In this document: positions 13,636-14,105 of the stretch, in pieces
Position numbering within the stretch: position 1 is the first letter of the stretch
Layout: every line of letters starts with the position of its first letter
From: Octopus vulgaris
Taxonomy: Eukaryota
Assembly: GCA_951406725.2 (NCBI GenBank)
Contig: OX597843.1
Span: 5,952,001-6,016,000, forward strand
DNA: 64,000 nucleotides
Direction of reading: 5' to 3'
Program-made: the position numbers and the translations under genes
The notes under the pieces: model-generated
What the model saw: the letters and a program-made list of their open reading frames with translations, nothing else
Databases searched by the model: none
Told to the model about the DNA's origin: nothing

Positions 13636-13636
<1 letters not shown>

Positions 13637-14105
13637 GATAAATCTCAGAGCGAGTTATAAACAGTAGCGGTAACACATCGTGACGCATATTTGCCATTTT
13701 AATATGGCTAACCCCTAAGGGTGAATGCTACTGTAGTTTGTAGCCCCAGGAAGACACCTCCTCCCGCTGGCTATAGACACACTATCTGTGTCCTGTCAGT
13801 ATTTGTGAAGGGAAATCATCCTTCCCGTCTTCAACTTATGGTACATACGGACCCGAGTTTCAAGATGTTTACCTTTCATCAGCGTGTGACAATCATGGTT
13901 GTCGACGAGAATTCAGTTTCCCTCACAAATACATATACTTTTTCCAGTGTCGATTTGACACTGATACTGAAAAAGTGAAATCAAACAGTGATAAATCTCA
14001 GAGCGAGTTATAAACAGTAGCGGTAACGCTGGGACTACAAACTACAGTAGCATCCACCCTTAGGGGTTAGCCATATTCAAATGGCAAATATGCGTCACGA
14101 TGTGT
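13636..14105 (-). mobile_element. Hammerhead-bearing retrozyme/Penelope-like element
   Basis: 39-bp direct repeats 13636-13674 and 13989-14027 (period 353); 77-bp inverted repeats 13673-13749 and 14029-14105; internal hammerhead; abuts (TA)n. Confidence 0.8.
13842..13890 (-). ncRNA. Type I hammerhead ribozyme
   Basis: Minus strand: cacacg-CUGAUGA-AAGGU(aaac)AUCUU-GAAA-CUCGG-GUC^cguaug; intact core, stems I-III. Confidence 0.8.

What the first reader, a model, noticed from the sequence alone, without database searches (positions are those of the whole stretch)
13636..14105. Second, unrelated-sequence element with the same architecture (353-bp period) in intron 1
Seen: 39-bp direct repeats 353 bp apart, a 77-bp inverted repeat and a fully canonical CUGAUGA/GAAA/GUC hammerhead on the minus strand. 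No evident sequence similarity to the 30-kb element. Inference: independent families share one size and one insertion signature, implying a common mechanism. The ribozyme is antisense to the host pre-mRNA and so would not cut it.
Basis: partly seen in the sequence, partly recalled or inferred. Interest (0 to 1): 0.7.

Follow-up and report, generated by a model that had tools for sequence, protein, structure and literature searches.

The report
Penelope-inserted hammerhead element in octopus
A short non-coding mobile element with a self-cleaving hammerhead RNA, inserted with the known footprint of Penelope-like retrotransposons; it is a known kind of element, but it hints at how animal 'retrozymes' get into genomes.

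Summary
In detail: an exact 39-bp direct repeat at period 353, a 78-bp inverted repeat (3 mismatches) and a type I hammerhead on the minus strand (1 of 20,000 shuffles). The architecture is the published insertion footprint of endonuclease-bearing Penelope-like elements (PLEs): partial tandem, inverted 5'-truncated copy, and a 36-nt tail abutting (TA)n. The unit is a structured (z about -6), ORF-less, 42% GC, 353-nt monomer of retrozyme size. The 30-kb element is a colinear homologue (nhmmer E 1.5e-7; 0 of 1000 shuffles), and its inverted copy starts 179 nt from the cleavage site, against 178 here. Shared size and signature are therefore common descent. The host is most likely Octopus vulgaris, which has recently active PLEs. 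Most likely a PLE reverse transcriptase copied a circular or multimeric RNA from two start sites 36 nt apart. With one ribozyme, this copy is probably a dead end. 'Intron 1' is unverified. It is a new member of a known kind; the retrozyme papers I read do not report this PLE footprint.

The parts
13636..14106 (-). Whole insertion (element A): inverted 5' copy + 1.1 units of a 353-nt hammerhead monomer + tail
13636..13671 (-). 36-nt PLE-type 'tail' at the 3' end, absent from the inverted copy. Its outer end is the inferred reverse-transcription start 1
   Evidence: difference between the DR end (13636) and the IR end (13672); 30-40 bp tail in PMC8557442 and PMC11167929
13636..13674 (-). Direct repeat, 3' copy (tail + 3 nt)
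   Evidence: 39 of 39
13989..14027 (-). Direct repeat, 5' copy (partial tandem, pLTR-like)
13672..13749 (-). Inverted-repeat arm within the monomer; 13672 is the inferred reverse-transcription start 2
   Evidence: aligns within 3-4 columns of the same end in element B
14029..14106 (+). Inverted 5'-truncated copy (78 nt, 3 differences); base 14028 at the inner junction fits neither template continuation
13675..14027 (-). 353-nt monomer, 42% GC, highly self-paired, no ATG ORF above 46 aa on either strand even when read as a circle
   Evidence: circular z -6.1; linear z -5.6, 0 of 100 shuffles
13844..13887 (-). Type I hammerhead at the tip of a long rod: core at 13882, helix II 5 bp, palindromic helix III (13851-13858), cleavage after C17 at 13850, weak helix I
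13945..13963 (-). Hairpin just downstream of the internal tail, shared with element B; candidate cis-signal for the reverse transcriptase (inference)
13554..13634 (.). (TA)n microsatellite at the tail junction (target site); no target-site duplication discernible
30087..30633 (+). Element B, a diverged homologue: IR 116 bp (1 mismatch), period 361, tail about 48 nt, hammerhead core variant CCGAUGA at 30373, (TA)n on both sides
19456..21402 (+). Nearest gene: two coding exons (19456-19881, 21100-21402) of a 242-aa protein with weak IL17 matches in each exon; a source names it Octopus vulgaris hypothetical protein

Best explanation
A non-autonomous, retrozyme-like hammerhead element inserted by the RT/GIY-YIG protein of an octopus Penelope-like element (PLE). 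SHOWN: the DNA anatomy, the hammerhead core, the structured ORF-less 353-nt unit, and homology and matching geometry with element B. INFERRED: (1) A tandem source locus elsewhere is transcribed, and the hammerheads, probably as dimers through the palindromic helix III, cut it into monomers that can be ligated into circles. (2) The PLE protein binds the RNA around the tail and cuts AT-rich DNA at the edge of a (TA)n run on both strands. (3) One target end primes cDNA at the tail's 3' end and copies 392 nt: one unit plus 39 nt, straight through the intact cleavage site. A linear cut monomer offers only 214 nt, so the template was a circle or an uncut multimer. (4) The other target end primes 36 nt upstream and copies 78 nt in the opposite direction. 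(5) The two cDNAs are joined head to head with one unassigned base. The result has a single ribozyme, cannot release a monomer, and is probably a dead-end 'solo' copy.
For: The footprint matches PLEs feature by feature: partial tandem, adjacent inverted truncated copy, 30-40-bp tail, (TA)n bias (PMC8557442; PMC3846280). Two RT start sites flanking the tail, cleavage and extension of both strands, and AT-rich targets were shown in vitro for an anole PLE (PMC11167929). Tail here is 36 nt. Geometry is conserved between A and B: cleavage site to inverted-copy end 178 vs 179 nt; internal tail end to core 107 vs 102 nt; period 353 vs 361. Both long copies stop 3 and 22 nt past start 2. The joint A/B fold is -46.0 kcal/mol against -19.4 +/- 4.3 for column shuffles (0 of 200) and -14.0 for A with reverse-complemented B. 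Helix III forms an 8-bp intermolecular duplex (-8.9 kcal/mol), while the monomer active fold costs +6.3 kcal/mol, as described for dimer-type metazoan hammerheads (PMC4209133). O. vulgaris has 190 PLE families (6.83% of the genome), and 31 Penelope-like families with recently active insertions (PMC13282606). Xenopus retrozymes are pLTR relatives (bioRxiv 10.64898/2026.07.22.740005).
Against: Only two copies were available. No tandem source locus, autonomous partner, transcript or circle was seen, and no GIY-YIG remnant appeared among 78 window frames scanned. The sequence 5' of the hammerhead aligns only weakly (z 1.8, 45 of 1000). The number of double-changed pairs in the joint fold (13) is no higher than in shuffles (13.3 +/- 3.6; 109 of 200), so covariation is not established. 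B's tail (about 48 nt) exceeds the usual 30-40. A's helix I is weak and may be decayed. In vitro the anole PLE hammerhead was dispensable for insertion, and unprocessed RNA was the main template (PMC11167929). Eight of nine Xenopus retrozyme dimers did not cleave in vitro. Circle versus multimer is unresolved: A's two tails are identical, while B's differ by 3 substitutions and 1 indel within about 9 nt, which leans towards two different units but could be one later mutation event.
Confidence: 0.65

Rival explanations
1. A 5'-truncated end (solo pLTR) of an autonomous PLE, or a short transcript from a pLTR promoter. RT reached the RNA 5' end and jumped to the tail of another RNA, making a 39-nt partial tandem. 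There is no circular or tandem monomer.
For: PLE insertions are routinely partial tandems with an inverted copy. Solo pLTRs and dispersed single hammerheads are common. A fixed transcription start about 105 nt upstream of the core would also explain the A/B geometry.
Against: It needs the same jump point in two diverged copies (107 vs 102 nt). A hairpin shared by A and B directly follows the internal tail. No ORF start is conserved between A and B. The hammerhead has a helix III and short helix II, as in retrozymes, rather than the minimal PLE form (PMC4209133).
Confidence: 0.24
2. One reading: two unrelated families that converged on one size and one insertion signature, pointing to an undescribed mechanism.
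For: blastn of A does not find B; identity is only 174 of 377 columns. With cheap gap costs, the part 3' of the hammerhead scored no better against B than against a 126-bp tandem array (213 vs 213).
Against: Full-length colinear homology. It persists without the hammerhead (z 5.1-5.5, 0 of 1000; with stricter gaps B scores 110 against a best of 82 among 4960 other tiles, and nhmmer E 0.02). The signature itself is published.
Confidence: 0.04
3. A SINE-like element moved by a LINE with L1-type twin priming, the hammerhead being a passenger.
For: Twin priming also gives 5' inversions (recalled, not checked here). A LINE RT fragment is in the window.
Against: No poly(A) or repeat tail. The inverted copy starts at a fixed internal site just before a 36-nt tail in both elements. 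The long copy exceeds one unit.
Confidence: 0.04
4. A MITE or foldback DNA transposon, or a local duplication/inversion or assembly artefact next to a microsatellite.
For: A 78-bp near-terminal inverted repeat and a TA-rich target.
Against: The inverted repeat is not terminal on one side (36-nt overhang duplicated internally). The same layout recurs in a diverged homologue 16 kb away. The hammerhead and fold are far from chance.
Confidence: 0.03

Closest known systems
Metazoan non-LTR retrozymes (Cervera and de la Pena 2020, PMC7229834; Li, Clavereau and Pollet, bioRxiv 10.64898/2026.07.22.740005)
   Same: Type I hammerhead with short palindromic helix III; non-coding, GC under 50%, highly self-paired monomer of about 350 nt (mussel 350-390, axolotl 331 and 353); proposed dependence on PLEs; dispersed monomers are described.
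   Different: This locus holds 1.1 units and one ribozyme, not a tandem array. It carries an inverted copy and a tail, which the main texts of those two papers do not mention (term counts). Neither main text mentions octopus or cephalopods (PMC7229834) or molluscs (the preprint); their supplements were not seen.
EN+ Penelope-like elements (Penelope/Poseidon, Neptune, Hydra; PMC8557442, PMC3846280, PMC11167929)
   Same: Partial tandem (pLTR), adjacent inverted truncated copy, 30-40-nt tail at one end, hammerhead in the repeat, AT-rich or microsatellite target.
   Different: No RT or GIY-YIG ORF. The hammerhead is of the canonical type with helix III, not the minimal PLE variant. The partner clade is unknown; Naiads lack hammerheads and are remnants in cephalopods.
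Non-autonomous PLE derivatives (Chlamydomonas MRC1-type Chlamys elements; Adineta pLTR-flanked cargo moved in trans)
   Same: ORF-less or foreign sequence moved in trans with pLTR, inverted and head-to-tail structures.
   Different: Most Chlamys elements lack canonical hammerheads; here the whole unit is a hammerhead-tipped structured RNA.

Membership tests
Non-LTR retrozyme | Type I hammerhead | tested here: met
   the core is canonical, helix I is weak; not detected by Rfam
Non-LTR retrozyme | Monomer of 150-450 bp, GC under 50% | tested here: met
   353 nt, 42% GC; unit length rests on one direct repeat plus homologue B (361)
Non-LTR retrozyme | Non-coding | tested here: met
   longest ATG ORF 45-46 aa; no Pfam match for the two long frames in the element
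Non-LTR retrozyme | Highly self-paired RNA | tested here: met
   z -6.1 circular, -5.6 linear; the opposite strand folds similarly (z -6.8)
Non-LTR retrozyme | Tandem array with two or more hammerheads (active element) | tested here: not met
   1.1 units and one hammerhead; so not filed as an active retrozyme, only as a solo, retrozyme-like copy
Non-LTR retrozyme | Self-cleavage and circular RNA in vivo | not testable with these tools
   no transcript data or assay
Non-LTR retrozyme | Multi-copy family in the genome | tested here: inconclusive
   one diverged homologue in 64 kb and no close copy; no animal genome collection available
Non-LTR retrozyme | No LTR, primer-binding site or polypurine tract | not tested
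   no long terminal direct repeats are seen; PBS and PPT were not searched
PLE-mobilised (non-autonomous) insertion | Partial tandem / pLTR | tested here: met
   39-nt upstream copy of the 3' end
PLE-mobilised (non-autonomous) insertion | Adjacent inverted 5'-truncated copy | tested here: met
   78 nt in A, 116 nt in B
PLE-mobilised (non-autonomous) insertion | 30-40-bp tail at one end only | tested here: met
   36 nt in A; about 48 nt in B, with an uncertain boundary
PLE-mobilised (non-autonomous) insertion | AT-rich or microsatellite target, TSD often absent | tested here: met
   (TA)n at the tail side of A and on both sides of B; no TSD seen; (TA)n runs are common here (76 runs of 10 or more units)
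PLE-mobilised (non-autonomous) insertion | Sequence similarity to the pLTR of an autonomous host PLE | not testable with these tools
   no octopus repeat library or genome in the tools
Autonomous EN+ PLE | ORF with RT and GIY-YIG endonuclease | tested here: not met

The most novel reading that the evidence does not exclude
The insertion is a direct genomic record of a PLE reverse transcriptase running more than once round a ligated hammerhead circle (or through a multimer), primed from both target ends at two fixed sites 36 nt apart. Because PLE RT starts internally, a cut monomer would give only a 214-nt dead fragment, so circularisation is what makes the short element heritable. This would give the PLE/retrozyme hammerhead a concrete role, identify the enzyme that moves animal retrozymes from its footprint, and extend retrozymes to cephalopods.
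Probability: 0.3. Interest if true: 0.6.

Novelty: new member of a known kind. Interest (0 to 1): 0.33.

Why it matters
Which retrotransposon moves animal retrozymes, and whether the circle is the template, is still argued from co-occurrence and pLTR similarity (PMC7229834, PMC7761336, bioRxiv 10.64898/2026.07.22.740005). A retrozyme-sized unit bearing the full PLE footprint, with start sites conserved between two diverged copies, is a more direct kind of evidence and is cheap to test genome-wide in octopus. It is not a new mechanism: each feature is published separately, and the element may already sit in octopus repeat libraries as an unnamed Penelope derivative (those libraries could not be searched). 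No effect on the neighbouring gene is indicated.

Tried and rejected
Rfam gave no hammerhead hit on the whole window at gathering score or on the element at E up to 5 (6 weak matches, all below gathering score).

An exact 26-nt core probe found 0 matches in bacterial and archaeal genomes.

Pfam on 78 of 81 non-repeat frames of 62 aa or more (the other 3 overlap frames scanned) gave one RT fragment at 60.8 kb and one weak phage-family match below its cut-off; no GIY-YIG.

Covariation as evidence was rejected. Double-changed pairs in the two-sequence fold do not exceed column shuffles. The pair counts used a structure derived from the same alignment and are circular. The shared motif blocks were chosen after seeing the alignment.

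A type III reading of the hammerhead was rejected by inspection, because the core is not adjacent to the upstream hairpin and helix III would break after two pairs. Short ORFs starting in the hammerhead core (27 aa) or before the tail are not conserved in B and were not pursued.

A third hammerhead element at 52.6-53.0 kb does not align to A or B (z below 1). The look-up of cluster members of the neighbouring protein, meant to find an upstream exon, could not be made, so 'intron 1' stays open.

Full report
OBSERVATION. The repeat finder and an exact-extension script give a direct repeat at 13636-13674 and 13989-14027 (39 of 39 identical, period 353) and an inverted repeat at 13672-13749 and 14029-14106 (78 bp, mismatches at 13700, 13724 and 13744). 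A type I hammerhead descriptor finds a core on the minus strand: C3 at 13882, helix II of 5 pairs, helix III of 2 pairs with a 4-nt loop, GUC with C17 at 13850, and helix I of 3 contiguous pairs. It matched 1 of 20,000 shuffles of the element (strict) and 5 of 20,000 (relaxed). The window holds 3 distinct cores against 0.03 per shuffled window. Rfam does not detect it. The core nucleotides are canonical but the periphery is weak. In the circular monomer helix III has about zero probability and the active fold costs 6.3 kcal/mol, whereas the helix III segment is self-complementary and forms an 8-bp duplex between two molecules at -8.9 kcal/mol. This is the dimer-type arrangement described for metazoan type I hammerheads (PMC4209133; parts 1-2 of 4 read).

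ANATOMY. On the hammerhead strand the insertion reads: inverted 78-nt copy, one unassigned base (14028), a 39-nt copy of the 3' end, 275 nt of unique sequence plus the rest of the unit, a 36-nt tail, then (TA)n. The 353-nt unit is 42% GC and folds far better than shuffles (circular z -6.1 on 60 shuffles; linear z -5.6, 0 of 100). It forms a long rod tipped by the hammerhead and flanked by hairpins. It has no ATG ORF above 46 aa on either strand. No target-site duplication is visible.

THE 30-KB ELEMENT IS A RELATIVE. Element B (30087-30633, + strand) has a 116-bp inverted repeat with 1 mismatch, period 361, a CCGAUGA core and (TA)n on both sides. Pairwise alignment scores z 7.1 (global) and 7.9 (local), 0 of 1000 shuffles each. 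The part 3' of the hammerhead alone scores z 5.1 and 5.5 (0 of 1000). The part 5' of it is weak (z 1.8, 45 of 1000), and the reverse-complement control gives z 2.1 and 1.7 (24 and 65 of 1000). nhmmer links A positions 9-347 to B at E 1.5e-7, and the reverse search gives 3.1e-6. B is the best of 2504 window tiles (359 vs 272 for the best non-B tile). One control was equivocal: with cheap gaps the 3' part tied with a 126-bp tandem array. With stricter gaps B scored 110 against 82 among 4960 other tiles, and nhmmer gave E 0.02. MAFFT aligns the units in 377 columns, 174 identical. The joint fold is -46.0 kcal/mol against -19.4 +/- 4.3 (0 of 200 column shuffles), but the count of double-changed pairs is not above chance (13 vs 13.3; 109 of 200). 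Landmarks coincide: cleavage site to outer end of the inverted copy 178 vs 179 nt (B's end is uncertain by about 5 nt in TA), and internal tail end to core 107 vs 102 nt. 'Independent families' is therefore not supported.

HOST. The frame at 19333-19920 retrieved 1 protein among 68 candidates, a 242-aa hypothetical protein named for Octopus vulgaris. It maps to + strand exons 19456-19881 and 21100-21402, each with a weak IL17 match below the curated cut-off. The annotated protein starts at 19456, right after an acceptor-like AG, so an upstream non-coding exon is plausible, and a TATA-like motif lies at 3157. This is not verified, and the cluster look-up could not be made. O. vulgaris has 190 Penelope-like families covering 6.83% of the genome, and 31 families with recently active insertions (PMC13282606; passages and one supplement row). 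Penelope is also listed as expanded in coleoids (PMC8967140; passages).

WHAT IS KNOWN. PLE insertions are partial tandems, often with an adjacent inverted 5'-truncated copy, a 30-40-bp tail at one end and a bias for microsatellites (PMC8557442, passages; PMC3846280, passages; PMC8969392, passages). In vitro, an anole PLE protein cuts and extends both strands at AT-rich DNA and starts reverse transcription at two internal sites that bound the tail. It needs RNA downstream of those sites, and it does not need hammerhead cleavage (PMC11167929; parts 1-2 of 4). Animal non-LTR retrozymes are 150-450-bp tandem units with type I hammerheads, expressed as circles, with PLEs as the proposed partner (PMC7229834, parts 2-4 of 6; PMC7761336, passages). 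A 2026 preprint ties them to PLE pLTRs by distribution and similarity and recognises solo monomers (10.64898/2026.07.22.740005; parts 1-3 of 5; supplements not seen). Circular templates for more-than-unit PLE cDNA were already proposed in PMC4209133. Term counts in the main texts of the two retrozyme papers show no 'tail' and no inverted-copy discussion. Searches for octopus with hammerhead ribozyme and retrozyme with cephalopod, listed no paper on such an element in cephalopods. These were listings only, and Repbase, Dfam and subscription journals were not searchable.

MECHANISM. Shown: anatomy, hammerhead core, structured non-coding unit, homology and conserved landmarks. Inferred from the PLE literature: two cDNAs primed from opposite target ends. 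One starts at the tail end (13636) and runs 392 nt; the other starts 36 nt upstream (13672) and runs 78 nt; they are joined head to head. A linear monomer cut at both hammerheads has only 214 nt between the tail end and its 5' end, while this copy runs through an intact cleavage site and back into the tail. The template was therefore a ligated circle or an uncut multimer, unless RT jumped templates at a fixed RNA 5' end (the main rival, 0.24). That both long copies stop 3 and 22 nt past the second start suits priming at successive units of one multimer. B's two tails differ by 3 substitutions and 1 indel within about 9 nt, which leans the same way. A's are identical, and total divergence between duplicated parts is similar in both elements (3 of 117 and about 5 of 187 positions), so circle versus multimer is unresolved. 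With one ribozyme this copy cannot release a monomer and is probably inert.

VERDICT. This is a real element that works like a PLE-mobilised retrozyme. It is not an autonomous PLE (no ORF) and not an active retrozyme array (one hammerhead). It is best filed as a non-autonomous PLE-type insertion of a retrozyme-like monomer: a new member of a known kind, interest 0.33. Its value is as footprint evidence for the retrozyme-PLE link and as a ready test case in octopus.

Noticed in passing
window 52568-53020 (-): A third type I hammerhead (core CCGAUGA at 52752, long helix II, 7-bp helix I, NUH = AUA) in a 450-nt segment between TA-rich runs. Its 5' end is a near-perfect palindrome of about 48-bp arms, like the inverted junctions of PLEs, but it has no duplicated tail and no similarity to A or B.
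   Followed up: partly
window 19456-21402 (+): Two-exon coding region for a 242-aa protein with two tandem IL17-like cystine-knot repeats (weak Pfam matches; the two exons are weakly similar to each other), annotated only as hypothetical.
   Followed up: partly
window 3157-3230 (+): TATA-like motif followed by an initiator-like word; candidate non-coding first exon 16 kb upstream of the IL17-like ATG, unverified.
   Followed up: partly
window 30202-30271 vs 30563-30633: The two tail copies of element B differ by a tight cluster of changes while its 116-bp inverted arms differ by one base; this may record two different template units.
   Followed up: partly
window 32615-33500: Tandem array with a 126-bp period, related to a dispersed repeat also seen at 13081 and 13469; no hammerhead found by the descriptor.
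   Followed up: no
window 45608-46180: Another local inverted repeat, 142 bp at 92%, arms about 290 bp apart, with no hammerhead detected.
   Followed up: no
window 60824-62193 (+) and 44474-45091 (-): A reverse-transcriptase fragment (Pfam RVT_1, E 4e-12) and adjoining frames that look like LINE C-termini by eye; a tRNA-like match at 45000-45069, probably a SINE head.
   Followed up: no
window 13672-14106 (+): If transcribed as part of a + strand intron, the inverted arms would form a 78-bp near-perfect RNA duplex, a possible A-to-I editing substrate (speculation from recalled octopus biology).
   Followed up: no
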